A stretch of DNA of 32,000 bases from Minisyncoccota bacterium (GTDB taxonomy: Bacteria; Patescibacteriota; Minisyncoccia; Minisyncoccales; Minisyncoccaceae): contig JBAZLS010000003.1 in NCBI GenBank assembly GCA_041650175.1, positions 39,917 through 71,916 of the forward strand, written 5' to 3'. Made by a program: the position numbers and the translations under genes. Each line of letters starts with the position of its first letter. The stretch's first letter is position 1. Positions 3,366 through 27,731 of the stretch are shown piece after piece. The notes beneath the pieces were generated by a model. The model was not told the origin of the DNA and ran no database searches. It worked only from the letters and a program-made list of their open reading frames with translations.

Positions 3366-4220
3366 CTAGGAGAATTTTAAATAGACTTCAGTAAGTCTTA
3401 TCCAATCTTCTAAAGACAATGTTTCAGCTCTTTGAGCCGTATTCAAACTAGAAGATTCTAATATTTGTTTTATTTTATCTCGCTCCCCTATCTGGGTTAG
3501 ATTTTTTAATAGTTGCTTTCGTGGAGATGAAAAACCTGTTTTGAGCAATTTAAAAAAAGTTTCAGTAAATTGCTTATTATATAGATTTTTTTTGGGAATA
3601 AAAGAAATAACAGCGCTATCAATTTTTGGTTTTGGATGGAAGCAATTTTTGGAAACAAAAAAAGCTATTTTTGGACTTGCATAATAATTAATACTGATTG
3701 AAAGCAAGGAATTAATGTTTTTACTACAAATTCTTTCCGCAACTTCTTTTTGGATCATTAAAGTTATTGATTCTGGAGTTTTTTCATTTTCCAAAAGTAA
3801 GCGAATCAAATGAGATGTCAAATAATATGGAATATTAGCAACAACCTTATACTTTTTGGGTAATTTGTGAAATAATTCGCTATTTGGATTTTTCAGTTCT
3901 TTTATAGCATCGCCAACGATTATGTCTACATTATTTATTCCCTTTTTATCAAGAGAGTTACTAAGCCAATTGGCTACCTTGCGATCCATTTCGATTGCTA
4001 TTAATTTTTTAGAGTTTGTGGCAAGGATTTCAGTGATCGTTCCAAGGCCAGGTCCTATTTCCAAAATAACATCTCTTTTGTTTATTTTGCTTGCTTCTGC
4101 TATTTTTTTAATAATATTTACGTCATGGAGAAAGTTCTGGCCAAGGCTTTTTTTAGCTGAAAATCCTGCTATTTCGAGAGTTTTTTTAATGTTTCCGTTT
4201 GGGGAGAACTCAATTGACAT
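3366..4220 (-). CDS. rsmA: 16S rRNA (adenine1518/1519-N6)-dimethyltransferase RsmA/KsgA
   Basis: KKSLGQNFL, SAM-binding EIGPGLGTITE, NIPYYLTS motifs; typical 284 aa length. Confidence 0.9.
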   Translation of the reverse strand: MSIEFSPNGNIKKTLEIAGFSAKKSLGQNFLHDVNIIKKIAEASKINKRDVILEIGPGLGTITEILATNSKKLIAIEMDRKVANWLSNSLDKKGINNVDIIVGDAIKELKNPNSELFHKLPKKYKVVANIPYYLTSHLIRLLLENEKTPESITLMIQKEVAERICSKNINSLLSISINYYASPKIAFFVSKNCFHPKPKIDSAVISFIPKKNLYNKQFTETFFKLLKTGFSSPRKQLLKNLTQIGERDKIKQILESSSLNTAQRAETLSLEDWIRLTEVYLKFS

Positions 4221-16616: not shown

Positions 16617-18407
16617 CTATTTAATTACCCATCCTACAATCAGGCTCTCAGGGCATGCATTAATACTAGTTACTGGGTCAGTGATAGTTACAAAAGGAAC
16701 TTCTGTTTTAGTTATGGTTTTCAGCTTTTTTCGAAGTTCTTGAGCATCTTCGGGATTATCTCCATGCGCAATAACAGCCCTCATTCTCCCTCCCCTTCTG
16801 ATCTCTCTATTAGAACTTTTTTCAATCTTTTTAAACAATATATCAACAAGATCAGATGATTTAATTTTTTCAATTGGTGTCATTTTTCCATCTCGCATTT
16901 CGACTAATGAATAGTAAGTATCCTTCTGTTTAAACCAAAAACTTTTTGATTCTTTTTTCCACCAATTAGTATTTTCCAAAATTCCATACACATTAATCTT
17001 TGGAACAAAATCAGTTAATCTTTTTACGATTTCGTCCATATTGCGCAACTCCTTAATCAGTTCCAATGCCTTTAGGACCACTAATGATTGTCCAGCGCTG
17101 ATATTTTTTGAATCAATCACAAACACTTTTTCACGATCGCTGAATGGCAGCATTTCCTTTGCCTTTAGAGCCGAATCATAATTACTGGAAAGTTTTGAAC
17201 TAGAAACAATACATAAAACCTTCTCGAATTTTTCAAGCTGGTTTTTGTAAGCCTCAAAGAAAAACTCTGAAGAAATAGAATTTATTTTTGGTTTATTTGT
17301 TATGCCCTGTTTTTTTGCTTCTTTTATTTTTTCGCAAATACTATTTCCTATGAGCGTCTCCCCTTCTGGCCAATCAATTCTGAATGGGATAATTTCTATA
17401 TTGTAATGTTGGATTATTTTTTGTCCAAGACCCGCCCTTTCATCAATTACTATTCCGATAGAAACTTTTTCAATAGATTTTTCTCCAACAACCTCTTTTG
17501 CCATATCCTGTATCTTCAAACTCTCAATATCCCCCATTTCCTTTATTATATCCCGTATTTCGTATGGACTATCTGTATGAATATGTATTTTTGTTTTATC
17601 CCCTATTTGGATTACATCAAGACAATTACCCAAATGGTGCAATCTAGCTCGTATTTTTTCCATTTTATAATCAGTATTAGTCAAAAGAGAAACGACTTCA
17701 AAACGGTTTGATATTATTTGTATAAACCTTTTTGTGGCCATCTCTTCATCTTCATTCTCGCCAGTAGCAAGGACTAATTCTTCAAAATCTTCATCAGAAA
17801 AAAGTTTTAACATATCAAAATACGCCTCAATAATCATTAAAAATCCTAATCCTCCAGCATCAACAACACCAGCAGTTCTAAGTATTTCCATATGGTTCGG
17901 GGTTTCCAATAAGGCGATATTTGCTCTCTTAAGCGCGATGCTAAAGACTTTTATAATATTATTTTCATCTTTATTTTCTCGAAAAGCATAAGCAAAAGCT
18001 CGCATTACATCAAGAATTGTTCCTTCTTTCGGGTTTTGGACAGAATCGACGGCACGAGTGTAAGCGCTTTCAAAAGCAATTGCTAATTTTTTTGTATTTA
18101 ATTTTTCTTCTCTTGGTAGTTCCCCAAAAAAACCCGCAAGCCAGCCAGTATAAATAATACCAGTATTTCCTTGCGCAGCTATAAGAGCTCCATCCATAGC
18201 ACTATCCCCTAGCTCTCCAATATTATTAAATTCCTTTTCTTCAATTGCATCTTTTACGCCTAGTAGCGTTGCAGCTAAATTACTTCCAGTATCTTGATCT
18301 GGAACAGGAAAAACATTAATTTTATTCACTTGTTCCTTATCTTTATCCACTCTCTCGCAGGACGAGATAATCATTTTTTGTAATTCAATTTGAGATATTT
18401 CTTCCAT
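16617..18407 (-). CDS. fakA: DAK2/DhaL-domain + DegV-domain fusion protein (FakA / YloV-like fatty acid kinase subunit)
   Basis: The N-terminal DhaL motif VFPVPDQDTGSNLAATL and GNTGII, then a C-terminal DegV-like half (SSSKLSSNYDSALKA, AHGDNPEDA). First gene of a co-directional fakA-fakB-fakB-plsY block. Confidence 0.8.
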   Translation of the reverse strand: MEEISQIELQKMIISSCERVDKDKEQVNKINVFPVPDQDTGSNLAATLLGVKDAIEEKEFNNIGELGDSAMDGALIAAQGNTGIIYTGWLAGFFGELPREEKLNTKKLAIAFESAYTRAVDSVQNPKEGTILDVMRAFAYAFRENKDENNIIKVFSIALKRANIALLETPNHMEILRTAGVVDAGGLGFLMIIEAYFDMLKLFSDEDFEELVLATGENEDEEMATKRFIQIISNRFEVVSLLTNTDYKMEKIRARLHHLGNCLDVIQIGDKTKIHIHTDSPYEIRDIIKEMGDIESLKIQDMAKEVVGEKSIEKVSIGIVIDERAGLGQKIIQHYNIEIIPFRIDWPEGETLIGNSICEKIKEAKKQGITNKPKINSISSEFFFEAYKNQLEKFEKVLCIVSSSKLSSNYDSALKAKEMLPFSDREKVFVIDSKNISAGQSLVVLKALELIKELRNMDEIVKRLTDFVPKINVYGILENTNWWKKESKSFWFKQKDTYYSLVEMRDGKMTPIEKIKSSDLVDILFKKIEKSSNREIRRGGRMRAVIAHGDNPEDAQELRKKLKTITKTEVPFVTITDPVTSINACPESLIVGWVIK

Positions 18408-18435
18408 ATAATTTAAAGAATTGCAGATATTTGGA

Positions 18436-19086
18436 TTATTTTACTTTTTCTTCTAAATCTTTTAGCATTTTTGCTGCTATATCTTTGCCGCCTAGGCCAA
18501 AAGATAATCCAAGGATCAGTACTAGCAAAGTGACAAATCCAATAAAAATAGTCAAAATCAAAGTTTGGACAATTTGTAATTGATAGAGAATAGCCAAGAT
18601 ACAAATTATCCAAGTACTTGTAGCAACAACATTCCCTACTATTCCCGAATAACTCATTTTTCTTTTTTCCATTTTAACCAAAACAATCTTTTTTGAAAAA
18701 TCTGCAAGAAATACTGCAAGTATGAAAATTAAAATCGAAATAAAAATATTTGGAAAATAGTTGATTACTTCTTGTAATATAATATTTATCTGGTCTAGTT
18801 TTATAATTTCAAATGATATGCTTAAAAATACTATTACAAAGAAAAATTCAATAATAGACCCGACAAATCCAGACATATCAAGCTTTGTGTCATATCTATC
18901 AAAAAATTCTTCCCATCCTAATGTTTTTAACATCTGGTTCAGTCTGATTTTATCAAGAACATTTTTAATAGCCTTTTTTATTTTTTTTGCTATAAACCAG
19001 CCAACAAAAAAAACAATAATACCCCAAAGCAATGGTGGTAACCCGCCAGAAAAACTTGTTATAAAAGCATCAATTAATTCTTTCAT
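18436..19086 (-). CDS. Polytopic membrane protein with conserved TM-helix repeats (as in mechanosensitive-channel N-terminal regions)
   Basis: LPPLLWGIIVFFVGWFIAKKIKK and a C-terminal LGLSFGLGGKDIAAKML pattern. Recalled from memory as resembling the 'conserved TM helix' family, not verified. Confidence 0.5.
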   Translation of the reverse strand: MKELIDAFITSFSGGLPPLLWGIIVFFVGWFIAKKIKKAIKNVLDKIRLNQMLKTLGWEEFFDRYDTKLDMSGFVGSIIEFFFVIVFLSISFEIIKLDQINIILQEVINYFPNIFISILIFILAVFLADFSKKIVLVKMEKRKMSYSGIVGNVVATSTWIICILAILYQLQIVQTLILTIFIGFVTLLVLILGLSFGLGGKDIAAKMLKDLEEKVK

Positions 19087-19215
19087 AATGTTTGTTTAGT
19101 TATTTTAAATTATTTCATTAAAAAATTACAAAGCAATCTACCTTTTTCGCCTCTTTTCTTATAAGTGCGTTAAAGTTTACGTTTAAAATTTTATAAAGCC
19201 TTTATTTACCTTATA

Positions 19216-19782
19216 TTACCATTTTGCTTTATGCAAGCCTAAATCATAACCGATCCTATTGAATATTATATGAATAAAAAATGTTAAAGGAATTAAAATT
19301 ATCCAAAAAAGACTCTCAAAGTGATAAAAAGGCTGAAGCACGATAAAACATCCTATACAATAATTTATTTGGTCAAATGGTATGAATGGCTGTCCAGGTT
19401 TTATTTTAAATCTCCGTTTTATAAAAGCGAACAACAAATCTCCGAAAACTGTACCAATAGATAGTAAAAAACCTGCAATTAACGCATTTGTAGCATTAGC
19501 ATTAAACCCGATTAATTGGTATAAATTTAATCCTAAAAATTCGTGAATAAAGAAAAATATTTGAAAATATCCAGTCCCAACGATAATTTCAGATAATAAT
19601 CCCCTCCATGTTTTATGGTTGCCTAATAACGGAGATCCAAAAAACCTATAATTAAAATCAATGGGGCCTGCTAATTTTGTGAAAAATTTTGAGTTTCTAG
19701 CAACTAATGGTGGAGCAGCATTTGCGCAATATGCTGGTATAAAAAAGTATATGCAAGCGAGTATATATAATAAGAAATCCAT
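19216..19782 (-). CDS. CarS-family (CDP-archaeol synthase-like, DUF46) integral membrane cytidylyltransferase homolog
   Basis: IPAYCANAAPPL, PIDFN...LLGNHKTWRG, GDLLFAFIKRRFKIKPGQPFIPFDQ motifs match the CarS family pattern rather than the CdsA PGHGG pattern. Confidence 0.7.
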   Translation of the reverse strand: MDFLLYILACIYFFIPAYCANAAPPLVARNSKFFTKLAGPIDFNYRFFGSPLLGNHKTWRGLLSEIIVGTGYFQIFFFIHEFLGLNLYQLIGFNANATNALIAGFLLSIGTVFGDLLFAFIKRRFKIKPGQPFIPFDQINYCIGCFIVLQPFYHFESLFWIILIPLTFFIHIIFNRIGYDLGLHKAKW

Positions 19783-19788
19783 GAAAGG

Positions 19789-20388
19789 TTAGAATTTTAT
19801 AATTTTTGGCTCAGTTTTTTTAATAAGTCTTTTAATATTTTCACGATGGGCCCACCATATTATTGGAATAAATAATACGCCAAGGATAGTAAAAGGAATT
19901 GATTGAGTACTATACCAAATTGCAACGGGAACAATAAAAATAATTATCAAATTAGTTAAGCTCATTATTTTCAAAGCATACAGTAGTAATACCCAAATAA
20001 ACAAGAATTGCAAGGCATTTTTAAATCCAATAAGACAAATCAATACAGCAAATACTGCCGAAACAGCTTTTCCTCCTTTAAAATTAAGCCAAAAGCTATA
20101 CATATTCCCAATGATCGCTGACAAAGAAATAACTGCAATTTCCCATTCAGGAAGAGAAAAATAAAAAGCTAAAATAACTGGTATGGCAACCTTCAAGACA
20201 TCAAGAATTACGACCAATAAAAAATAAGAAAATCCAAGGCTTCGAAGAATATTAGTTCCTCCGACATTGCCACTTCCCTGTTTTCGGATATCAATTTTTT
20301 TTGATTTTGCAATCAAATATCCAACAGGAGTTGAAGCGCAGATATATGCAAATAATATTAATAAAATAAAAATGAAATTTTGATTCAT
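19789..20388 (-). CDS. plsY: Glycerol-3-phosphate acyltransferase PlsY
   Basis: IRKQGSGNVGGTNILR, LDVLKV, FWLNFKGGKAVS, HRENIKRLIKKTEPKI motifs; 199 aa. Confidence 0.9.
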   Translation of the reverse strand: MNQNFIFILLILFAYICASTPVGYLIAKSKKIDIRKQGSGNVGGTNILRSLGFSYFLLVVILDVLKVAIPVILAFYFSLPEWEIAVISLSAIIGNMYSFWLNFKGGKAVSAVFAVLICLIGFKNALQFLFIWVLLLYALKIMSLTNLIIIFIVPVAIWYSTQSIPFTILGVLFIPIIWWAHRENIKRLIKKTEPKIIKF

Positions 20389-20832: not shown

Positions 20833-20836
20833 ATTT

Positions 20837-20864
20837 ATAAAAAACTAGAAGTTTTAACTTCTAG
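20837..20864 (-). terminator. Hairpin + U-run closing the tRNA-Pro/module unit, 5 nt upstream of the yraN start
   Basis: Stem CTAGAAGT / ACTTCTAG (20845-20852 / 20857-20864). The plus-strand A6 at 20839-20844 gives U6 on the minus-strand transcript. Confidence 0.55.
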
Positions 20865-20904
20865 CTCTTCTGGCTTTTAAATTTTACGATCAAGCGTTCG
20901 ATTT

Positions 20905-21057
20905 TTACCCCGATGTTGGGAGTCCATTATCTAATTCCTACTGGAATTATCTAAAGCCTGGCTGCGGCACCAGTCGTGCCTTGCCTTCGACTCCCCCACA
21001 ATACTTCCCTACATTATCCCACTATAACGTTGGAATTTTAGCTTAGTTTAGTTTCTG
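20905..21057 (-). other. tRNA-Pro-linked structured module (diverged copy of the tRNA 3' end, conserved core, inverted T-arm copy)
   Basis: CCCGATGTTGGGAGTCC (20908-20925) resembles the tRNA-Pro 3' end CGGGATGCTGGGAGTCG. Hairpin at 20933-20948 (loop TACT), AAGCCTG at 20954-20960, hairpin GGCAC-CAGTC-GTGCC at 20966-20980, CCTTCGACTCCCCCA at 20984-20998 (inverted T-arm). Confidence 0.6.
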
Positions 21058-21128
21058 TCGGGATGCTGGGAGTCGAACCCAGATTACGGACTCCCGAAGC
21101 CCGCATAATGCCTTTATATGACATCCCG
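21058..21128 (-). tRNA. tRNA-Pro (anticodon CGG)
   Basis: 71 nt. Acceptor CGGGATG/CATCCCG, anticodon stem CGGGC/GTCCG with loop UUCGGGA, T-arm CTGGG-TTCGACT-CCCAG. The D-stem is A/T-only and weak. CCA not encoded. Confidence 0.8.
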
Positions 21129-21205
21129 TAAGCGGGATAATTCTTAGAGTAATTAATTTTAGTATCTAAATCCGGCAATTAGCCGGATTATAGACTGAAG
21201 ACGAG

Positions 21206-21230
21206 GAACATTAAGCCCGAATGTTTTTTA
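21206..21230 (+). terminator. Orphan terminator-like hairpin + T-run with no upstream plus-strand gene
   Basis: Stem AACATT / AATGTT (21207-21212 / 21220-21225), loop AAGCCCG, then TTTT. Preceded by hairpin AATCCGGC-AATTA-GCCGGATT (21169-21189). Confidence 0.35.
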
Positions 21231-21319
21231 CACATTAATAATAGGATGATTTAATAAAAAAAGCAAGAGTTTTCATTTTATTAAATACGAAAAATAATAA
21301 AAAAAAGAATTAAAATTTT

Positions 21320-21425
21320 TTCTGGCCAAAACTCTCACCATTCTGGCCAAATTATCCCCAACTTTGTCCCCATTCTGGCCAAAACTCTCACCATTCTGGC
21401 CAAATTATCCCCAGTTTTATCCACA
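21320..21425 (+). repeat. 53-bp tandem duplication (2 units), each with two TTCTGGCCAAA boxes and a DnaA-box-like 9-mer
   Basis: ttctggccaaaactctcaccattctggccaaattatcccca occurs at 21320 and again at 21373. The unit tails differ (actttgtccccat versus gttttatccacat). Confidence 0.85.
21417..21425 (+). promoter_or_regulatory. Exact DnaA-box consensus TTATCCACA, with TTATCCCCA variants at 21352-21360 and 21405-21413
   Basis: Direct match to the canonical 9-mer. The two neighbours differ at one position. Confidence 0.4.
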
Positions 21426-21627
21426 TTTTGGCCAGCAAAATACATTTTTTGTTGTAAATACAAGGAGGTTCTTTTTAGCCAAAAGTCATTTTTATTTGGC
21501 CAAATCCACAAAAAACGTAAAAATAAAACCTATTTTAAATAAAAGGTTCTTTAATTTTTCTTTAATTTTGGCCAGAATAATTTTTTCTGGCCAAATAGTA
21601 TTTTATAATTAAACGATACTTAATCAG

Positions 21628-21698
21628 TGGACCTGACGAAAATCGAATTCGTGTTTCTGCTATGCGAAAGCAGTGTATTTCCACTATACTACAGGCCC
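21628..21698 (-). tRNA. tRNA-Ala (anticodon CGC)
   Basis: 71 nt. Acceptor GGGCCTG/CAGGTCC with the G3:U70 alanine identity pair, anticodon stem CTGCT/AGCAG with loop UUCGCAU, T-arm ACGAA-TTCGATT-TTCGT. Confidence 0.9.
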
Positions 21699-21786
21699 GC
21701 AGTATTTTTTATAAGTTTATTATAAATAAATTTTTTTAAAAAAACAATAAAATTAAAAACAATAATAGTTTTTTATTTATTTAATT

Positions 21787-21867
21787 TGGCCAGAAAGAAA
21801 TTATTCTGGCCAAAGTTATTTTTGGCCAGAATCGGTTCTGGCCAAAATATGTTAAAAATCTTGGCCA
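21787..21867. repeat. Second array of TGGCCA-core motifs (5 copies)
   Basis: TGGCCA at 21787, 21807, 21823, 21839 and 21862, in alternating orientation. Confidence 0.85.
21822..21846. repeat. 25-bp palindromic element TTGGCCAGAA-TCGG-TTCTGGCCAA(A), copy 1
   Basis: Perfect 10-bp inverted arms with a 4-bp spacer; identical 25-mer at 22817-22841. Confidence 0.85.
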
Positions 21868-22099
21868 GAACTGGAAAATAAACAAATATTTTTGTCAAAT
21901 TAGCTTTAAAAGATTTTTTAAAACAATATTCACACTTTTTAACGTATTTATGCGGAAAGTGAACCCTCAAAACAAGGTATTTCTAAAAAAAAGAAAAAAT
22001 ATCCTATAAAATATCTGACAAAGTAATAAAACTGAAAAAATGTAAAAAATTAGAATATCAAAAATTTGCGAAATTTTTTAAAAGAAGGCTTTTTTAAAA

Positions 22100-22115
22100 C
22101 GTTTCACGTGAAACG
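22100..22115. promoter_or_regulatory. parS-like site CGTTTCACGTGAAACG (perfect 16-bp palindrome)
   Basis: 14/16 match to the ParB-binding consensus TGTTNCACGTGAAACA; only the outermost positions differ. Confidence 0.75.
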
Positions 22116-22282
22116 ATTATTTTTTAGATAAAAATAATTAGAATAATTAAATCATAATTTAAAAAATTTAACGTATTTATGGGAAAAGTAACCTCTTAAA
22201 ACACTTAAATTCAACTATATGGCATTTTTTCGTAATTTAATCTTTTAGAATTCCTAGAACATTTTTATGGCCAAATAGAAGC

Positions 22283-22298
22283 CGTTTCACGTGAAACA
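22283..22298. promoter_or_regulatory. parS-like site CGTTTCACGTGAAACA
   Basis: 15/16 match to the parS consensus. Confidence 0.8.
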
Positions 22299-22424
22299 AA
22301 CGATATTTCAATCCATTTTCCGAAATTTTTTAAAAGGTTTTTAGCGTTAAAACAATCCGGCCAAAATCAACGTTTTTTCTGGCCAGAATAATCTAGAAGA
22401 ATTTGCTATTTTGGCCAGATTCTG

Positions 22425-22440
22425 TCCGCCACGTGAAACA
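22425..22440. promoter_or_regulatory. Degenerate parS half-site TCCGCCACGTGAAACA
   Basis: The right half plus the central CACGTG are intact; the left arm has diverged. Confidence 0.4.
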
Positions 22441-22509
22441 GATTTTTAAATTCTAAAAAATTAGAATTAAAAAATTTAATAAAACTAAAAAATATAATTT
22501 AATTAATAG

Positions 22510-22525
22510 TGTTTCACGTGAAACT
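22510..22525. promoter_or_regulatory. parS-like site TGTTTCACGTGAAACT
   Basis: 15/16 match to the parS consensus. Confidence 0.8.
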
Positions 22526-22718
22526 AAGGCATTTTATTAAAAAACCAATTAAATATAACTTGTCTATTAATATTTAATTTATCCTTTATTTATAAGAAAA
22601 AAAGAACATAATTATTACTTCGAAAAAAGAAAATCCTAAAAATATAGCTAATTCGTAAATTTTTAAATTTTTCTTAAAAATTAAAATAAATTTTTAAAAT
22701 TTAATAAAGTTTTAATGA

Positions 22719-22734
22719 TTTTTCACGTGAAACA
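22719..22734. promoter_or_regulatory. parS-like site TTTTTCACGTGAAACA
   Basis: 15/16 match to the parS consensus. Confidence 0.7.
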
Positions 22735-22807
22735 TTTTTAAAAAACGAAAAAAACATCAAAAACAGCTCTTTTTTCGTAGTTGACGAGAGGTCATTCGTG
22801 TTGATTT

Positions 22808-22861
22808 TGGCCGGTATTGGCCAGAATCGGTTCTGGCCAAATCTGGCCAGAATGTTGGCCA
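22808..22861. repeat. Right array of TGGCCA-core motifs (4 exact + 1 TGGCCG variant), includes palindrome copy 2 (22817-22841)
   Basis: ttttggccggtattggccagaatcggttctggccaaatctggccagaatgttggccagaatgc. Confidence 0.85.
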
Positions 22862-23023
22862 GAATGCTAAAAAATAAATAGCAAAAGTGTCAATTATTTG
22901 TATTTTTTTTAAAAATTTTAAAACAAAAAATAAGATTTAATTTCAAATTAAAAAAGAAACTATCTCAAATTTATTAACAATAACAAAAAACACGGATAAT
23001 CCGTGCTTTGTTATTATATTATT

Positions 23024-24535
23024 TTATTGAATCCAATATTTCTTTTTAGTTTTTTTATCTTCTTCCGATTTTATCTCACCAACCTCTTTTTTTGCTTGGA
23101 GTGATAGGTCCTTAATCTCTTTGTCAGATAAGTCTACTAAATCTTCTAACTGTTCAAGTAATACTTTACGAGAATTATTCTTTGGGTTTTTGAGAACGCT
23201 TTCCAATAATATCTCCAATAACCAGCCAATCTTGGGCGATGGTTTAATTTTAAATAAATTCATTATATCAGAGCCATTTATTTGGAGCATTTTGACCGAA
23301 ATAGGGTCTTTCGACACTTTTTCAATCATATACTTTAAATGTCTTAATTTGTAAGGTTCAGCCTTTGGACAGCCAGAGCCAATACGATCCGCCATTCTTA
23401 ATTTTAATAAATCTTCAACGTTTTCAATACCAATATTCTTAATTAATCGCCTAATTGATGCCTCCTTGACTTCATCAATATTGTAATAAAATAGGTGATA
23501 TCTAACCAATAAAGTTATCTTTTCAATATCTTTTTTAGGAAAATGTAACCTTGTAAGAATAATTTTCACCATCTTTGCGCCAACTATTTCATGATTATAA
23601 AAAGTTGCATTTTCTCCTTCTCCATTTTTTGTAGCAGGTTTGCCGATATCGTGCAGTAGGGAAGCCATACGAATAGAAAAATTGAAATTTTTCTTCGTAG
23701 AATAAGTTAAAGCTTCTAAATTATGCTGATAACAATCAAAAATATGATGTTTATTTTGAGCAATTTCATATCCTTGTTCTAGTTCGGGAATAACGTATTT
23801 TAATAATCCATTTTTCCTTAAGGATTCGATTCCGCTAGCTGCTTTATCACTATTTATGGTTTTTATAAGCTCATCTCTTAGCCTTTCTTGAGATATTTTT
23901 TTAAGCAAAACTGCATTCCTTTTAATAGCAGATTTAGTTTTTTCTTCAATTATCCATCCTTCTCCAAGACAGGCTTCAAATCGTATCGCTCGTATCATTC
24001 TAAGGGCATCTTCGGAAAATCTTTCCTCAGGATTACCCACAGATCGGATTATCTTTTCCTTCAAATCTTCTTGACCATTATAAGGATCAATTATGAGATT
24101 TTGCTTATTGCTAGTAGGGAATAATGCAATAGCATTAACAGTAAAGTCCCTTCTTTTTAGGTCATCTTCGATTGTTTTAGACCATTCAACTTTATCGGGA
24201 TGACGATTATTAGAATAGGAAGATTCTGATCTAAATGTTGTTATTTCAATAATTTCATATTCTTCTTGGTCAAATGTTTCACGTGAAATAGGGAAGGCAA
24301 TTCCAACAGTTCCAAAGTCATTTTCATAAAAAGTTTTAATATTTTTTTTGCCAAAAATACTCTGAATTTGCTCAGGAGTAGCATCTGTTGCTATGTCCCA
24401 ATCAGATGGAACTATACCTCTTAAATAATCCCTAACAGAACCTCCGACTATATATGCCTTAAAACCAGTCTCGGTAAGAGTATTAAGGCAAAAGAAGACG
24501 TTATTAGGTATTTTTATTATTCCTTTTGAGTGCAT
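23024..24535 (-). CDS. cca: CCA-adding enzyme / poly(A) polymerase-family tRNA nucleotidyltransferase with an HD domain
   Basis: GFKAYIVGGSVRDYLRG..PSDWDIAT nucleotidyltransferase head, RDFTVNA, LLHDIGKP HD motif. Consistent with three of the four tRNAs lacking an encoded CCA. Confidence 0.85.
   Translation of the reverse strand: MHSKGIIKIPNNVFFCLNTLTETGFKAYIVGGSVRDYLRGIVPSDWDIATDATPEQIQSIFGKKNIKTFYENDFGTVGIAFPISRETFDQEEYEIIEITTFRSESSYSNNRHPDKVEWSKTIEDDLKRRDFTVNAIALFPTSNKQNLIIDPYNGQEDLKEKIIRSVGNPEERFSEDALRMIRAIRFEACLGEGWIIEEKTKSAIKRNAVLLKKISQERLRDELIKTINSDKAASGIESLRKNGLLKYVIPELEQGYEIAQNKHHIFDCYQHNLEALTYSTKKNFNFSIRMASLLHDIGKPATKNGEGENATFYNHEIVGAKMVKIILTRLHFPKKDIEKITLLVRYHLFYYNIDEVKEASIRRLIKNIGIENVEDLLKLRMADRIGSGCPKAEPYKLRHLKYMIEKVSKDPISVKMLQINGSDIMNLFKIKPSPKIGWLLEILLESVLKNPKNNSRKVLLEQLEDLVDLSDKEIKDLSLQAKKEVGEIKSEEDKKTKKKYWIQ
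24275..24290. promoter_or_regulatory. parS-like site TGTTTCACGTGAAATA inside the cca coding sequence
   Basis: 15/16 match to the parS consensus. Intragenic parS sites are common in other bacteria. Confidence 0.6.
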
Positions 24536-24887: not shown

Positions 24888-27731
24888 ATGAGAACTAATT
24901 TTTTTAGAAAAATTTGTTTTGTTCTTTTAGGATTTTTTTGTTTTAGTTTTTCTATTGTTTTTGCTGCTGGACAATGTTCCTCTGGTGAAAATGGATCATA
25001 TCTTGATAATGCGCCTCATGACTTTTGTTCCAGCGGAACAACTTCATCTTTTACAGAACATAACGATGGTAATGTTAATATATACTGGACATGGAAATGC
25101 GGTACGGTTGATTGTACAGCTTATAAAAGAAAGACGGCTACAGCATCAAACCCAGTAATATGCGCTCCAAATCTTCCTGGATGGTGTCTTAATTATATTA
25201 GTGGAGATTCTTTTAACTCTGCAGTTTGGGGTTCTAGTCATTCATTATCCGGAAAAGCTCTTTCTTGGACTTGTAATTATTCAGGACAAACGGTTAATTG
25301 TGCTGCCGATATTGGTAATTGTGGTTCAATTACTTCAACACCCATTACTAGTTCTCCAGATGAAAGCAATGGATGTCAAGTTGGATATACTTTTGGAGGT
25401 TTGAATCAATTAACTTATTCATCAACTCACGAAAATGTTCCTATTGGTTATGGAGCATATGGATCGGATTGGTTATATAGAACTCCTTATACAGTATGGA
25501 CGTGGACTTGTGGTTCCTCACGTTGTTTTGGTTATATTTCTTCTGTTGTTAATGGCGCCTGCGGAACATCCAACGGAGCTAATTCCAGTACTGTTCCTAC
25601 AACCAATCTCTGTAATGAAGGAACAGCCTCTGCAGTCTCGGGAACTGGTCCATGGACTTGGACTTGCAATGGAATCGGCGGAGGAACTAATGCATCTTGT
25701 TCTGCTAATAAAATAACTGATGGCACTTGCGGAACAGCAAATCTAAAAACTTATTTATATGACGCAACCAGCTATGGAACAGATACTCAATGCGCAAATG
25801 GAACGTCAACTAATACCGCTTTCCCAGTAGTCGGAGGATCAGCAACTTGGTATTGTAATGGAAGCAATGGGGGAGCTAATAGTTCACTTTGTACTGCCAG
25901 TCGAAATGCCACTCCAGTTGCTGGTGCTTGCGGAACAGCCAATAACAAGACATATGCTTACAATGCAACAAGTTATGGATCAGATACTCAATGTTCAAGC
26001 GGAACTTCAAGCAACACTGCTTTTCCAGCTCAAGGGTCAATAGTTATTTGGACTTGTAGTGGATCAAATGGAGGCGAAACAAGAAGCTGTGCTGCTGGAC
26101 GTAATCCCGCTCCTATTAATGGTACTTGCGGAACAGCAAATCTAAAAACTTATCCTTACAATGCAACCAGCTACGGAACAGATACTCAATGTGAAGCAGG
26201 AACGTCAACTAATACCGCTTTCCCAGTAGTCGGAGGAATAACTAGTTGGTATTGCAATGGAAGCAATGGGGGAGCTAATAGTTCGCTTTGTGCCGCTAGT
26301 CGAGTCAATACTCCTATTAATGGCATTTGCGGAACAGCAAATCAAAAAGATTATCCCTATAATGCAACAAATTATGGATTAGATACTCAATGCGCAAGTG
26401 GAACTTCAACCGACACTTCTTTCCCAGCAGTCGGAGGAATACTTATCTGGTTTTGCAATGGAATTAATGGTGGAATAAATAGTAGTTCTTGTGCGGCAAG
26501 TCATAACCCTTACGTAAATGAAAACTGTGGTTTATCTAGCGAAGGTAATTTTAATGAAAAACCTATAGCCGATTTATGTAGTAATGGAGCAACAGCTTCA
26601 ACAGTTTCAGGAACTGGTCCATGGACTTGGACTTGCACTGATAATGAAGGAGAAATCTCAAATTGCTCTGCTGACAAGATTGTTAATGGTATTTGTGGAA
26701 CAGCAAATTTAAAACCCTATCCTTATAACGCAACTGGCTATGGAATAGACACTCAATGTGCATCAGGAACGTCAACTAACACTGCTTTCCCAGCAGTTGG
26801 AGGGTTAGCTACTTGGACTTGCAGCGGAAACAATGGAGGAACTAATAGTTTACCCTGTACTGCTAGTCGAGATAATACTCCAATTAATGGTATTTGTGGA
26901 ACAGCAAATTTAAAACCCTATCCTTATAACGCAACTGACTATGGAATAGACACTCAATGTGCATCAGGAACGTCAACTAACACTGCTTTCCCAGCAGTTG
27001 GAACAGCAGTTGGCTGGTATTGTAATGGAAGTAATGGAGGAACTAACAGTTTACTTTGTGCGGCAAGTCATATTGATAATGGCACTTGTGGCTCATCCAA
27101 TGGAAGCAATTTTAATGAAGCCCCTACAATCGGTTTATGTAACAGCGGATCACCTAGTACTGTTACTGGAGATGGTCCATGGACTTGGACCTGTAGTGGC
27201 GTTTATGGAGGAACAACTTCATATTGTAGTGCAAACAAGATAACTAATGGCGTTTGCGGAACAGCTGATGGTAGGGAGTATAGTTACCCTACAACATCTT
27301 ATGGTTTAGACACTCAATGTGCAAGTGGAACGTCAACTAACACCGCTTTTCCAGCACCTGGCTCGTCACAGGCTTGGATATGCAATGGGACTTATGGAGG
27401 AACAGCAAGTTCTTGCACTGCTAGTCACACTGCCGGATCTACTGCTAATGAAATTACTTCCTTCAAATTTAGAACTCCAGATGTTGTTGGGACTATTAAT
27501 GGAAATGATATTACTGTGACTGTTCCTTATGGAACTGCGGTTAATTCTTTAATTGCCATTTTTACTACTACCGGAAAAACAGTTCAAGTTGGAACCATTA
27601 CTCAGTATAGTAACGAAACTGTAAATGACTTTACTAATAAAGTATATTATCTTGTTTATCCAGAAGTTGGATCAATTCGAGTCTATACAGTTACAGTTAA
27701 AAAATCAATAAATCCTACTTGGAGAGAGTAA
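24888..27731 (+). CDS. Secreted or cell-surface Cys-rich repeat protein (947 aa) with a C-terminal beta-sandwich-like domain
   Basis: Signal peptide MRTNFFRKICFVLLGFFCFSFSIVFA. Seven ~66-aa modules (CGTANxKxYxYNATxYGxDTQCxxGTSTNTAFPxxG...WxCxGxNGGxNSxxCxAS) are interleaved with at least three ~55-aa modules (CGxSNGxxFxxxPxxxLCxxGxxSxVxGxGPWTWTC..GGxxxxCSANK). Strong terminator downstream. Confidence 0.8.
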   Translation: MRTNFFRKICFVLLGFFCFSFSIVFAAGQCSSGENGSYLDNAPHDFCSSGTTSSFTEHNDGNVNIYWTWKCGTVDCTAYKRKTATASNPVICAPNLPGWCLNYISGDSFNSAVWGSSHSLSGKALSWTCNYSGQTVNCAADIGNCGSITSTPITSSPDESNGCQVGYTFGGLNQLTYSSTHENVPIGYGAYGSDWLYRTPYTVWTWTCGSSRCFGYISSVVNGACGTSNGANSSTVPTTNLCNEGTASAVSGTGPWTWTCNGIGGGTNASCSANKITDGTCGTANLKTYLYDATSYGTDTQCANGTSTNTAFPVVGGSATWYCNGSNGGANSSLCTASRNATPVAGACGTANNKTYAYNATSYGSDTQCSSGTSSNTAFPAQGSIVIWTCSGSNGGETRSCAAGRNPAPINGTCGTANLKTYPYNATSYGTDTQCEAGTSTNTAFPVVGGITSWYCNGSNGGANSSLCAASRVNTPINGICGTANQKDYPYNATNYGLDTQCASGTSTDTSFPAVGGILIWFCNGINGGINSSSCAASHNPYVNENCGLSSEGNFNEKPIADLCSNGATASTVSGTGPWTWTCTDNEGEISNCSADKIVNGICGTANLKPYPYNATGYGIDTQCASGTSTNTAFPAVGGLATWTCSGNNGGTNSLPCTASRDNTPINGICGTANLKPYPYNATDYGIDTQCASGTSTNTAFPAVGTAVGWYCNGSNGGTNSLLCAASHIDNGTCGSSNGSNFNEAPTIGLCNSGSPSTVTGDGPWTWTCSGVYGGTTSYCSANKITNGVCGTADGREYSYPTTSYGLDTQCASGTSTNTAFPAPGSSQAWICNGTYGGTASSCTASHTAGSTANEITSFKFRTPDVVGTINGNDITVTVPYGTAVNSLIAIFTTTGKTVQVGTITQYSNETVNDFTNKVYYLVYPEVGSIRVYTVTVKKSINPTWRE
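25550..27440 (+). repeat. Intragenic array of ~165- and ~201-bp coding repeats
   Basis: For example, 26684-26801 versus 26885-27002 match at 117/118 positions (offset 201 bp). 25720-25835 versus 26121-26236 are highly similar (offset ~402 bp). Confidence 0.9.

What the first reader, a model, noticed from the sequence alone, without database searches (positions are those of the whole stretch)
21320..22861. About 100-fold local enrichment of an unassigned TGGCCA-core motif (TTCTGGCCAAA / TTGGCCAGAAT)
By eye I count 20 exact TGGCCA hexamers in 1.54 kb, plus variants CGGCCA at 22358 and TGGCCG at 22808. I found about four in the other ~30 kb. They share extended flanks (TTCTGGCCAAA or its complement TTTGGCCAGAA, often ...GGCCAGAAT). 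They occur in both orientations and form four groups: 21320-21593, 21787-21867, 22268-22417 and 22808-22861. These groups surround tRNA-Ala and the parS cluster. The motif is not a DnaA box, parS, a Noc site or a dif site. It looks like an iteron or operator array for a dimeric DNA-binding protein, such as a replication initiator, a second partition or condensation factor, or a nucleoid organiser.
Basis: seen in the sequence. Interest (0 to 1): 0.7.

Follow-up and report, generated by a model that had tools for sequence, protein, structure and literature searches.

The report
Variant DnaA-type boxes at chromosome origin
The TGGCCA repeats are this uncultured bacterial lineage's one-letter-changed version of the short boxes that crowd its chromosome origin/centromere region, most likely read by the replication initiator DnaA, and they show about 20 binding sites changing together within a shallow clade.

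Summary
There are 20 exact TGGCCA plus 2 variants in 21320-22861, against 5 in the other 30 kb. The extended form TYTGGCCARA occurs 15 times, all inside the island.

The island is a 2.2 kb non-coding gap in a Candidatus Paceibacterota genome. It holds tRNA-Pro, tRNA-Ala, 4-5 parS sites and canonical DnaA boxes, and it lies beside a gene-orientation switch.

Two relatives (CCA-enzyme identity 79% and 73%) have the same island, with 20 and 14 TGGCCA. Ten more distant syntenic relatives keep the architecture but have almost no TGGCCA (none in most gaps, one G-type box in L045). At homologous positions they carry TGTCCAGAAT, or TGTCCACAA in one sub-clade. These boxes are interleaved head-to-tail at a 9-12 bp period with TGTCCACA and TTGTCCCCA boxes.

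The motif is therefore TTGGCCAGAAT. It is a one-base derivative of the family's main origin box, which is itself one base from the TTGTCCACA DnaA box. The palindrome is largely incidental.

The most likely reader is DnaA (about 0.55). A separate origin-binding factor that competes with DnaA is a serious rival (about 0.3), because only the ...CCAGA class switched T to G.

It is not a REP/MITE, an iteron with a rep gene, parS or a Noc site. I file it as a new variant of a known kind, of moderate interest.

The parts
21320..21436 (.). Mixed box array. G-type class-B boxes have their TGGCCA cores at 21323, 21344, 21376, 21397 and 21429. They are interleaved with class-A DnaA-type boxes: TTATCCCCA 21352-21360, TTGTCCCCA 21364-21372, TTATCCCCA 21405-21413 and TTATCCACA 21417-21425. 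The array includes a 53-bp tandem duplication (21320-21372 and 21373-21425).
   Evidence: The homologous arrays in L025, L027, L036 and L041 are shown.
21494..21510 (+). Composite site TTTGGCCAAATCCACA: a symmetric weak G-type box fused to the DnaA-box-like AAATCCACA.
21566..21597 (.). Inverted pair of G-type boxes (TTTTGGCCAGAAT and TTCTGGCCAAAT, cores at 21569 and 21588), just 3' of tRNA-Ala.
   Evidence: flags it as a hairpin, but no T-run follows it on the tRNA strand.
21627..21698 (-). tRNA-Ala(CGC), embedded in the island. Its position is conserved in the relatives.
21784..21870 (.). Group of five G-type boxes with cores at 21787 (+), 21807 (-), 21823 (+), 21839 (-) and 21862 (+). It includes the 25-bp unit TTGGCCAGAATCGGTTCTGGCCAAA, which recurs at 22817.
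   Evidence: family D2. Conserved in L025 and L027. L036 has T-type boxes at the same place.
21894..21899 (-). Conserved TTGACA (-35-like hexamer) about 30 bp upstream of the five-box group and of tRNA-Ala.
   Evidence: It is invariant in the three-genome alignment (columns about 1293-1299). No good -10 hexamer was found, so promoter function is inferred only.
22100..22734 (.). parS cluster: 16-mers at 22100-22115, 22283-22298, 22510-22525 and 22719-22734, plus a hybrid of a box-like sequence and a half parS, CTGTCCGCCACGTGAAACA, at 22422-22440. Boxes are interspersed: weak TATGGCCAAAT (core 22268), variant CGGCCAAAAT (22358), palindromic TTCTGGCCAGAAT (22380) and TTTTGGCCAGATT (22412).
   Evidence: family D3. 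In the three-genome alignment 96% of parS columns are invariant.
22805..22864 (.). Group of five boxes next to the 3' end of the CCA-enzyme gene: variant TTTTGGCCGGTA (22808), then cores at 22818 (+), 22834 (-), 22844 (both orientations) and 22856 (+).
   Evidence: The site-by-site homolog in L036 reads ...aatcTGGACAAAATCAAC..., against ...accgGCCAAAATCAAC... in the window read on the reverse strand.
22864..22893 (-). Promoter-like element TTGACA-18-TAGCAT (10 of 12 matches) that fires leftward into the box group at 22805-22861.
   Evidence: The TTGACA is invariant in L025 and L027 and present in L036.
21057..21128 (-). tRNA-Pro(CGG), which marks the left edge of the island.
24275..24290 (.). 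An additional parS-like site inside the CCA-enzyme gene.
   Evidence: TTTCACGTGAAA at 24277.

Best explanation
SHOWN: the 2.2 kb gap 20833-23023 is a conserved, non-coding origin/centromere-type region of a Paceibacterota family. It lies between the CCA-adding-enzyme gene and yraN/plsY. It contains parS pairs alternating with groups of a short repeated box, two tRNA genes, and one mixed array in which that box alternates in phase with canonical DnaA-type boxes. In most of the family the box is TGTCCAGAAT. In one sub-clade it is TGTCCACAA or TGTCCACTA. In the window and its two closest relatives it is TGGCCAGAAT. The TGGCCA motif is therefore a one-base (T to G) derivative of the family's origin box, which is itself one base (C8 to G) from the TTGTCCACA DnaA box, and its palindromic core is a by-product of that change. 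INFERRED: the boxes are bound by the initiator DnaA through domain IV, one monomer per box. The many ...CCAGAAT boxes would nucleate and extend DnaA oligomers, in the way strong and weak sites are arranged in E. coli oriC. The groups beside conserved TTGACA promoter-like elements would let the same protein control transcription into the origin and the tRNA genes. The uniform T to G flip at about 20 sites would reflect a change in the preferred base of the reading protein in this shallow clade.
For: Enrichment and confinement to the gap. Same island in L025 and L027 (CCA identity 79% and 73%). Conserved synteny in ten further loci. The gap-specific top 8-mer is TGGCCAGA in 3 genomes, TGTCCAGA in 10 (L036, L039, L041, L043, L044, L045, L076, L085, L097, L107) and TGTCCACA in 2 (L037, L042). 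The group-by-group architecture and the homologous sites are conserved. Head-to-tail arrays with a 9-12 bp period mix TGTCCAGAA with TGTCCACAA/G and TTGTCCCCA. L027 has a continuous run of 9-mers, TTGTCCACA-tt-TTGGCCAGA-TTATCCTCC-tt-TTATCCACA-.... The box classes substitute for one another between lineages (L037 is essentially all ...CAC; L045 and L043 are all ...CAG). Phylogenetic footprint: 61% of box columns are invariant against 33% of spacer columns. Gene-orientation switch, parS cluster and AT-rich stretches of 95-97%. Literature precedent for arrays of strong and weak DnaA sites and for lineage-specific shifts in box specificity: PMC4285127 and PMC5043019.
Against: No dnaA gene lies in the window or in any fetched family locus. 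DnaA binding and any change in domain IV could therefore not be examined. In E. coli and M. tuberculosis, positions 4 and 8 of the box contact DnaA and deviations lower affinity (PMC5043019). TTGGCCAGA matches TTATCCACA at only 6 of 9 positions. In the G-type clade the boxes fall into two discrete classes: base 4 with base 8 is G+G 57 times, T+C 6 times, T+G 2 times and G+C never. The T to G switch affected only the ...CCAGA class, and that class alone has a conserved 3' AT extension. This pattern fits two readers more naturally than one. No unwinding element or DnaA-trio was identified, and compact relatives have gaps of only 300-470 bp with little AT-rich DNA. GC skew here follows the coding strand and does not independently locate the origin.
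Confidence: 0.55

Rival explanations
1. The ...CCAGAAT boxes (TGGCCAGAAT here) are read by a separate origin-binding protein, not DnaA. This would be a regulator or competitor whose sites mimic and interdigitate with DnaA boxes, working like AdpA in Streptomyces, Spo0A in Bacillus or MtrA in Mycobacterium. The T to G shift would then insulate its sites from DnaA's.
For: There are two discrete box classes with correlated positions, and the switch is confined to class B. Class B has a conserved 3' AT extension that class A lacks. Class B boxes abut class A boxes with a 0-2 bp gap, which suits competition. Box groups 1-3 beside parS contain class B only. TGGCCAGAAT fits the AdpA consensus TGGCSNGWWY at 10 of 10 positions, and AdpA binds between weak DnaA boxes in oriC and competes with DnaA (PMC3411110). 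Symmetric TCTGGCCAGA sites make up about 19% of G-type sites, whereas C at that flank is about 3% in T-type relatives.
Against: No candidate gene was found. Nothing DNA-binding is conserved next to the gap. The wHTH gene beside the independent array in L060 has no homolog in the family loci. Sites of this class outnumber canonical boxes about 4 to 1, and in some lineages they are the only boxes present (L045 and L043). That would leave those regions with no DnaA box at all. The ancestral TGTCCAGAAT fails the AdpA consensus at position 3, and AdpA is actinobacterial. In L037 and L042 the ...CAC boxes occupy the same positions, which suggests functional equivalence.
Confidence: 0.3
2. The T to G change was selected because it creates GGCC/TGGCCA, the target of a DNA methyltransferase. 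The origin boxes would then become methylation-sensitive, giving a SeqA/GATC-like or CcrM-like link between replication and re-initiation control. This would be layered on top of whichever protein reads the box.
For: The change makes a 6-bp palindrome typical of Type II methyltransferase targets at about 20 origin sites at once. The T-type sister lineage L036 strongly avoids GGCC outside the gap (5 observed against 24 expected, p about 3e-6), while the G-type genomes do not (window 20 against 27). Position 4 is otherwise variable: L036 uses T and twice A.
Against: No DNA methyltransferase gene is present in the window. TGGCCA is not depleted outside the island (5 observed against about 2-5 expected). 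The box function predates the palindrome. The conserved flanks are asymmetric. The GGCC-avoidance correlate rests on a single lineage and about 20 kb of sequence.
Confidence: 0.08
3. The boxes are accessory centromere or condensation sites, read by a ParB/Noc paralog or another partition-complex factor that works with parS rather than with replication initiation.
For: Box pairs and parS pairs alternate, and in L041 and L043 they are duplicated together as units. A conserved hybrid of a box and a half parS lies at 22422-22440. Compact relatives have boxes and parS but no obvious unwinding element.
Against: ParB/Noc-family sites are 14-16 bp palindromes bound by dimers, whereas the ancestral box is asymmetric and often tandem. 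The boxes are one base from DnaA boxes and are interleaved with perfect TTATCCACA. No parB-like gene lies in the fetched flanks.
Confidence: 0.05
4. The inverted box pairs act as RNA or DNA hairpins (terminators or processing signals for the tRNAs), or the motif is a mobile or dispersed repeat.
For: Three box pairs score as terminator-like hairpins. An unrelated TTTGGCCAGAAacTTCTGGCCAAA hairpin follows an HU gene in L003, L021 and L035.
Against: Many boxes are solitary or in direct repeat. What is conserved is the box sequence, not the pairing: the partner is missing in L027. No T-run follows on the tRNA strand. The motif is confined to one gap per genome. There is no transposase, no terminal repeat and no Rfam match.
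Confidence: 0.02

Closest known systems
DnaA boxes and DnaA-box arrays of bacterial oriC (E. coli TTATNCACA with strong R boxes and arrayed weak sites; actinobacterial TTGTCCACA / M. tuberculosis YWRTCCACA)
   Same: These are short asymmetric boxes clustered in a non-coding region at a gene-orientation switch, together with parS and AT-rich DNA. They form head-to-tail arrays with a 9-12 bp period. They are interleaved with perfect TTATCCACA and TTGTCCACA. There is evolutionary continuity with TGTCCACA at homologous positions.
   Different: The box reads TTGGCCAGA(AT), with G at positions 4 and 8, which contact DnaA in the model species. It has a conserved 3' AT extension and outnumbers the canonical boxes about 4 to 1. 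No dnaA gene is adjacent. No unwinding element was identified, and binding is untested.
Lineage-specific DnaA-box variants (Epsilonproteobacteria with a strict T at position 5 and a TTCAC core, PMC5043019; the 12-mer box of Thermotoga maritima, from my own knowledge and the title of PMC10316083)
   Same: They are a precedent for initiator and box specificity drifting together within a lineage.
   Different: Here the shift is seen within a shallow clade (NusA identity 83-86%). It happened at least twice in one family, and it leaves a second, unshifted box class in the same origin.
Origin-binding regulators that compete with DnaA: AdpA (5'-TGGCSNGWWY-3'), Spo0A, CtrA, MtrA, HP1021 (PMC3411110, PMC4285127)
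   Same: Their sites are interdigitated with or abut weak DnaA boxes. TGGCCAGAAT matches the AdpA consensus at all 10 positions.
   Different: Those regulators have 1-5 sites per origin, not about 20. The ancestral T-type box does not fit the AdpA consensus. AdpA is confined to actinomycetes, and no candidate gene was found here.
GATC/SeqA clusters in E. coli oriC and the ParB/Noc specificity switch (the latter from my own knowledge)
   Same: GATC/SeqA shows a short palindrome strongly enriched at an origin. ParB/Noc shows a concerted change of many sites following a change in reader specificity.
   Different: The function of these boxes predates the palindrome. The sites are asymmetric and related to DnaA boxes, not to parS or the Noc binding site.

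Membership tests
DnaA box (oriC initiator site) | A 9-mer matching TTWTNCACA (or YWRTCCACA) with at most 1-2 mismatches | tested here: not met
   TTGGCCAGA matches 6 of 9 positions, with mismatches at 3, 4 and 8. The family's T-type TTGTCCAGA matches YWRTCCACA at 8 of 9 (consensus from PMC5043019).
DnaA box (oriC initiator site) | Clustered together with canonical boxes, sharing their orientation and phase | tested here: met
   See the L027 run of 9-mers, the L044, L041, L097 and L085 arrays and the window array at 21320-21436.
DnaA box (oriC initiator site) | Homologous positions are occupied by canonical boxes in related genomes | tested here: met
   L037 and L042 carry TGTCCACA/T where other lineages carry TGTCCAGA or TGGCCAGA.
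DnaA box (oriC initiator site) | Located at the replication origin (skew or marker-frequency minimum, unwinding element) | tested here: inconclusive
   An orientation switch, a parS cluster and AT-rich stretches are present. However, the skew follows the coding strand, no unwinding element or DnaA-trio was identified, and compact relatives lack obvious AT-rich DNA.
DnaA box (oriC initiator site) | Bound by DnaA domain IV | not testable with these tools
   No dnaA gene could be retrieved from these genomes.
Plasmid-type iterons | Direct repeats of 17-22 bp, regularly spaced in one orientation, next to a rep gene | tested here: not met
   The unit is 10-11 bp, occurs in both orientations and has variable spacing of 10-32 bp. 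No rep gene lies within the 32 kb window or the 10 kb flanks of relatives.
REP/MITE dispersed repeat | Copies in many intergenic regions of the genome | tested here: not met
   The gap-specific 8-mer occurs 17-21 times in the gap against 0-2 times in the flanks. Each of the two related G-type genomes (L025, L027) gave only one locus in the GTDB species-representative scan.
parS / Noc binding site (ParB family) | A 14-16 bp palindrome, TGTTNCACGTGAAACA or ATTTCCCGGGAAAT | tested here: not met
   The sequence is different, and parS is present separately. The ancestral box is non-palindromic.
AdpA box | Match to 5'-TGGCSNGWWY-3' | tested here: met
   TGGCCAGAAT fits 10 of 10 positions (consensus from PMC3411110). 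The T-type homologs fail at position 3.
AdpA box | An AdpA-type AraC/XylS regulator is encoded in the genome | not testable with these tools
   Only 32 kb of the genome is available, and it encodes no such regulator.
Methylation-site cluster (SeqA/GATC-like) | A short palindromic methyltransferase target enriched at the origin, with a cognate methyltransferase | tested here: inconclusive
   A palindromic core is enriched, but the homologous sites in relatives are not palindromic. No methyltransferase gene is in the window. GGCC avoidance was seen only in the sister lineage L036.

The most novel reading that the evidence does not exclude
The family records natural specificity switches of an origin-reading protein. 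All of about 20 boxes flipped from TGTCCAGAAT to TGGCCAGAAT within a shallow clade. In another sub-clade they flipped from ...CAGAA to ...CACAA or ...CACTA. Meanwhile a second, canonical DnaA-box class in the same origin stayed put. This would mean either a DnaA with two recognition modes, or a previously unknown origin-binding factor in CPR bacteria that mimics and competes for DnaA boxes. It may be coupled to GGCC methylation or restriction pressure.
Probability: 0.35. Interest if true: 0.7.

Novelty: new variant of a known kind. Interest (0 to 1): 0.5.

Why it matters
No paper characterising a replication origin in Patescibacteria/CPR turned up in my searches. This locus gives a conserved, dnaA-unlinked candidate origin in which parS and initiator-type boxes are tightly interleaved. 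It also gives a graded natural series (TGTCCACA, TGTCCAGA, TGGCCAGA) in which about 20 sites changed in concert. That series is a ready-made test of how an initiator, or a competitor of it, co-evolves with its sites. It also shows that searching only for the E. coli consensus box would miss most of the boxes in these genomes.

Tried and rejected
1. I looked up the window's own CCA enzyme and its 100%-identical database entry P0001 to extend the contig. Neither is on record, so the rest of the source genome, including dnaA, any methyltransferase and candidate regulators, could not be read.

2. A motif-pair scan of the GTDB species genomes gave 35 hits. Only L025 and L027 are true relatives. L003, L021 and L035 are an unrelated hairpin after an HU gene, and the rest are chance matches.

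3. A metagenome scan for tandem boxes was meant to find other contexts such as dnaA promoters. Most hits were chance matches or coding repeats such as GQN. Four were the same CCA-plsY gap. The only independent array is L060, between an ECF sigma gene and a weak DeoR-type HTH gene, and that gene has no homolog in the family loci. No array next to a dnaA gene was found. The one locus with a DnaA hit, L074, is an unrelated organism, and its box-like repeats look like a coding repeat (not verified).

4. Rfam at gathering and at E-value thresholds found only the tRNAs.

5. No protein-coding potential is evident in the gap: the only ORFs of 25 aa or more are short and run through the box repeats.

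6. GC skew was rejected as independent evidence for the origin, because G exceeds C on the coding strand on both sides.

7. The NusA-CCA divergent intergenic region was checked as a possible second half of the origin. It is AT-rich but has no boxes.

8. Restriction-site avoidance of TGGCCA or GGCC is not seen in the window.

9. The CCA-enzyme tree and NusA identities could not resolve whether the three G-type genomes are monophyletic to the exclusion of L036.

10. Literature searches for TGGCCA with oriC, and for CPR origins, found nothing relevant.
Full report
**Observation.** The window has 25 TGGCCA hexamers. Twenty lie between 21323 and 22861, and five lie in the remaining 30 kb. Dinucleotide-preserving shuffles give 4.9 ± 2.2 per window and never more than 10. 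The variants CGGCCA (22358) and TGGCCG (22808) are present. The flanks are shared: TYTGGCCARA occurs 15 times and TTYTGGCCARAA 6 times, all inside the island. Most sites have one "strong" half (CCAGAAT) and one "weak" half (CCAAAA/T). Only two sites in the window are symmetric, TCTGGCCAGA at 22378 and 22842. The enrichment is about 80-fold.

**Setting.** The island fills a 2.2 kb gap (20833-23023) with no evident protein-coding potential: the only ORFs of 25 aa or more are short and run through the box repeats. Rfam matches only tRNA-Pro(CGG) at 21057-21128 and tRNA-Ala(CGC) at 21627-21698, both on the minus strand.
- To the left are yraN/UPF0102, three plsY paralogs, a CarS-like gene, fakA, three degV, S15 and PNPase, all on the minus strand.
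- To the right are the CCA-adding enzyme (minus strand), then a repetitive Cys-rich 947-aa protein, nusA, tig and clpP on the plus strand.

The gap therefore lies beside a gene-orientation switch. Cumulative GC skew is lowest near 24-25 kb. However, G exceeds C on the coding strand everywhere, so the skew is not independent evidence for the origin.

The gap holds four parS sites with a perfect core, plus a half site; a further parS lies inside the CCA gene at 24275-24290. Each of these directly abuts a TGGCCA site. Several 60-bp stretches are 92-97% A+T. The source is a Candidatus Paceibacterota MAG (P0001).

**Close relatives keep the motif.** A motif-pair scan of GTDB species genomes found two Paceibacterota MAGs, L025 and L027. 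Their CCA enzymes are 79% and 73% identical to the window's. They carry the same island, with 20 and 14 TGGCCA sites, four parS sites, the DnaA boxes and both tRNAs in the same order.

In a three-way alignment, 61% of box columns are invariant, against 33% of spacer columns. The figures are 96% for parS, 96% for the tRNAs and 72% for the canonical boxes. The motif is confined to the gap in all three genomes. This rules out a dispersed REP/MITE element and shows purifying selection on the sites.

**More distant relatives change the picture.** Homologs of the CCA enzyme led to syntenic loci at 62-71% identity. Four more loci came from a metagenome scan. Gene order (nusA, then the CCA gene, the gap, then yraN where present, plsY and so on) is conserved. 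The gap keeps parS and the tRNAs, but TGGCCA is essentially absent from it.

De novo k-mer enrichment gives a different gap-specific 8-mer in each set of relatives:
- TGTCCAGA in L036, L039, L041, L043, L044, L045, L076, L085, L097 and L107.
- TGTCCACA in L037 and L042.

The group-by-group layout matches between L036 and the window: box group, two parS, box group, two parS, box group, tRNA-Ala, mixed array, tRNA-Pro. Individual sites are homologous. Next to the 3' end of the CCA gene, L036 reads aatcTGGACAAAATCAACgagaatcatctc. The window, read on the reverse strand, has accgGCCAAAATCAACacgaatgacctc. The window's box, in its informative orientation, is therefore TTGGCCAGAAT. That is one base from the family's TTGTCCAGAAT, which is in turn one base from TTGTCCACA. 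TTGTCCACA fits the M. tuberculosis DnaA-box consensus YWRTCCACA (PMC5043019). The palindromic TGGCCA core is a by-product of the T to G change.

**Arrays look like DnaA-box arrays.** Compact relatives share one eight-box array in a single orientation: TGTCCAGAA-tcg-TGTCCAGAA-TTGTCCCCA-att-TGTCCAGAA-TGTCCACAG-tt-TGTCCAGAA-tcg-TGTCCAGAA-TGTCCAGAAT. The period is 9-12 bp. L045 has four TTGTCCAGAAT and one inverted TTTTGGCCAGAAT between tRNA-Ala and tRNA-Pro. L027 has an uninterrupted run of co-oriented 9-mers: TTGTCCACA-tt-TTGGCCAGA-TTATCCTCC-tt-TTATCCACA-tt-TTGGCCAGA-TTATCCCCT-at-TTTGTCCACA.

Across lineages the classes substitute for one another. L037 has about 25 TGTCCAC(A/T) boxes and only one ...CAGA box. 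L045 and L043 have only ...CAGA boxes. In-phase mixing and substitution at homologous positions are what one reader, DnaA, would produce. They echo the E. coli arrangement, in which strong boxes nucleate oligomers that extend over arrayed weak sites (PMC4285127).

**One reader or two?** The data also contain a real argument for two readers. Position-frequency matrices show that the ...CCAGA class has a conserved 3' extension, with A in 74-80% and then T in 61-79% of sites. The ...CCACA class lacks it.

| Clade | base 4 + base 8: G+G | T+C | T+G | G+C |
|---|---|---|---|---|
| G-type (window, L025, L027) | 57 | 6 | 2 | 0 |
| Relatives | 1 | 34 | 71 | 0 |

The T to G switch thus hit one class and spared the other. 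In E. coli and M. tuberculosis every box position except the fifth contacts DnaA, and deviations lower affinity (PMC5043019). An unmodified DnaA should therefore read TTGGCCAGA poorly.

A separate factor that mimics and competes for DnaA boxes would explain the two classes. It would work like AdpA, Spo0A or MtrA. TGGCCAGAAT happens to fit the AdpA consensus TGGCSNGWWY at all ten positions, and AdpA competes with DnaA at weak boxes in Streptomyces oriC (PMC3411110). Against this reading:
- The ancestral T-type box fails the AdpA consensus.
- AdpA is actinobacterial.
- No candidate gene was found.
- Such regulators normally have a handful of sites, not 20.
- Some lineages would be left with no DnaA box in the region at all.

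**Tempo of the change.** On a CCA-enzyme tree the T-type lineages are basal (L045, L039/L044). L037 and L042 (...CAC boxes) are nested among them, which implies a second concerted switch. The G-type genomes and the T-type L036 form an unresolved trichotomy. G-type monophyly has 31/100 bootstrap support, and NusA identities are 86.5, 86.0 and 83.2%. The flip of about 20 sites is therefore recent. Uniformity within each genome (57 G to 2 T here; 12 T plus 2 A in L036) points to a preference of the reading protein rather than drift.

One side observation may bear on this. L036 avoids GGCC outside the gap (5 observed, 24 expected, p about 3e-6), while the G-type genomes do not. Restriction or methylation pressure on GGCC may therefore have influenced which base is tolerated. 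This rests on a single lineage and is a minor hypothesis.

**Transcription.** A strong promoter-like element, TTGACA-18-TAGCAT on the minus strand at 22893 to 22864, fires into the box group at 22805-22861. Its TTGACA is invariant in L025 and L027 and present in L036. A second invariant TTGACA at 21899-21894 (minus strand) precedes the five-box group and tRNA-Ala. The boxes may therefore also act as operators. This would be in keeping with DnaA's known role as a transcription factor, but it is inferred only.

**Limits.**
- No dnaA gene lies in any fetched locus, and the source contig could not be extended.
- No unwinding element or DnaA-trio was identified, and compact gaps of 300-470 bp leave little room for one.
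- "Origin" is therefore a well-supported inference and is not proven. A DnaA-box/parS cluster close to the origin remains possible.

**Verdict.** The finding is real, conserved and origin-associated, but it is not an unassigned new motif. It is a clade-specific one-base variant of a DnaA-type origin box. I rate it a new variant of a known kind. Its interest is moderate and lies in the concerted, repeated switching of box sequence and in the two-class structure of the origin.

Noticed in passing
window 21942-21972 and 22171-22203 (repeat family D4, 21911-21974 / 22140-22203); L025 3882 and 4112: A 31-nt element, ACGTATTTATGCGGAAAGTGAACCCTCAAAA, occurs twice within the parS region. The second window copy is diverged. 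It is present twice, and identical, in L025, but was not found in L027 or in more distant relatives. Its function is unknown.
   Followed up: partly
window 21135-21232 (minus strand), just 5' of tRNA-Pro: A conserved element has two hairpins: AACATTCGGGCTTAATGTT, and ATCCGGC-loop-GCCGGATTTAGA. It is shared by the window, L025, L027, L036 and L041. The stem is conserved and the loop varies, but there is no compensatory covariation and no Rfam match.
   Followed up: partly
window 22422-22440; L025 about 3641-3662; L027 about 1232-1250; L036 about 12052-12072: A conserved hybrid site fuses a box-like sequence directly to a half parS: CTGTCCGCCACGTGAAACA here, and TTTGTCCAGCACGTGAAACA in L036.
   Followed up: no
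L036, outside the gap (about 20 kb): There is strong GGCC avoidance (5 observed against 24 expected, p about 3e-6), and CCGG is also low (11 against 26). This is the T-type sister lineage of the G-type clade. The window shows no such avoidance.
   Followed up: partly
L003 2010-2040, L021 5455-5480, L035 3045-3075: Nearly identical DNA (an HU gene, the hairpin TTTGGCCAGAAacTTCTGGCCAAA, a tRNA, then an ORF) occurs in MAGs labelled Patescibacteria group, Doudnabacteria and Saccharibacteria. This suggests a mobile element or a binning artefact.
   Followed up: no
window 24888-27731 (plus strand); L027 3510-5642: A 947-aa protein with no Pfam match is built of Cys-rich repeats of the form CGTAN-K-Y-Y...YG-DTQC-GTSTNTAFP. 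Its G+C is 41% against 31% for the genome. The ortholog in L027 is 710 aa, so the repeat number is variable.
   Followed up: partly
L038 9443-9754; L042 7811-8724; L037 about 11880-12190; L076 and L085 gaps: The origin gap is a hot spot for insertions. GIY-YIG endonuclease-like genes and other small ORFs, plus an extra tRNA-Val, appear in some relatives. L037 and L038 encode the same CCA protein; a GIY-YIG gene is called in the gap only for L038.
   Followed up: no
L041 7560-8230: Units of about 219 bp, each with two parS and two T-type boxes, are tandemly repeated and interrupted by an assembly gap of Ns. The copy number is therefore uncertain.
   Followed up: no
L060 3200-3340 (118 kb metagenome contig, 35% GC): An independent array of eight TGTCCAGAA and two TTGTCCACA boxes lies between an ECF-type sigma factor gene and a 225-aa gene with a weak DeoR-type HTH match. 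This is a different genomic context in another low-GC lineage.
   Followed up: partly
window 13191-20388: There is a dense lipid-scavenging cluster: three plsY paralogs, a fakA-like gene, three degV genes and a CarS-like cytidylyltransferase. It is conserved in order across the family.
   Followed up: no
window 4136-4147 and 17365-17376: Two of the five TGGCCA outside the island also carry the extended flank (TTCTGGCCAAGG and TTCTGGCCAATC). The 8-mer TCTGGCCA is seen twice, against about 0.2 expected from base composition. The first lies near the divergent rsmA / M23-peptidase starts.
   Followed up: no
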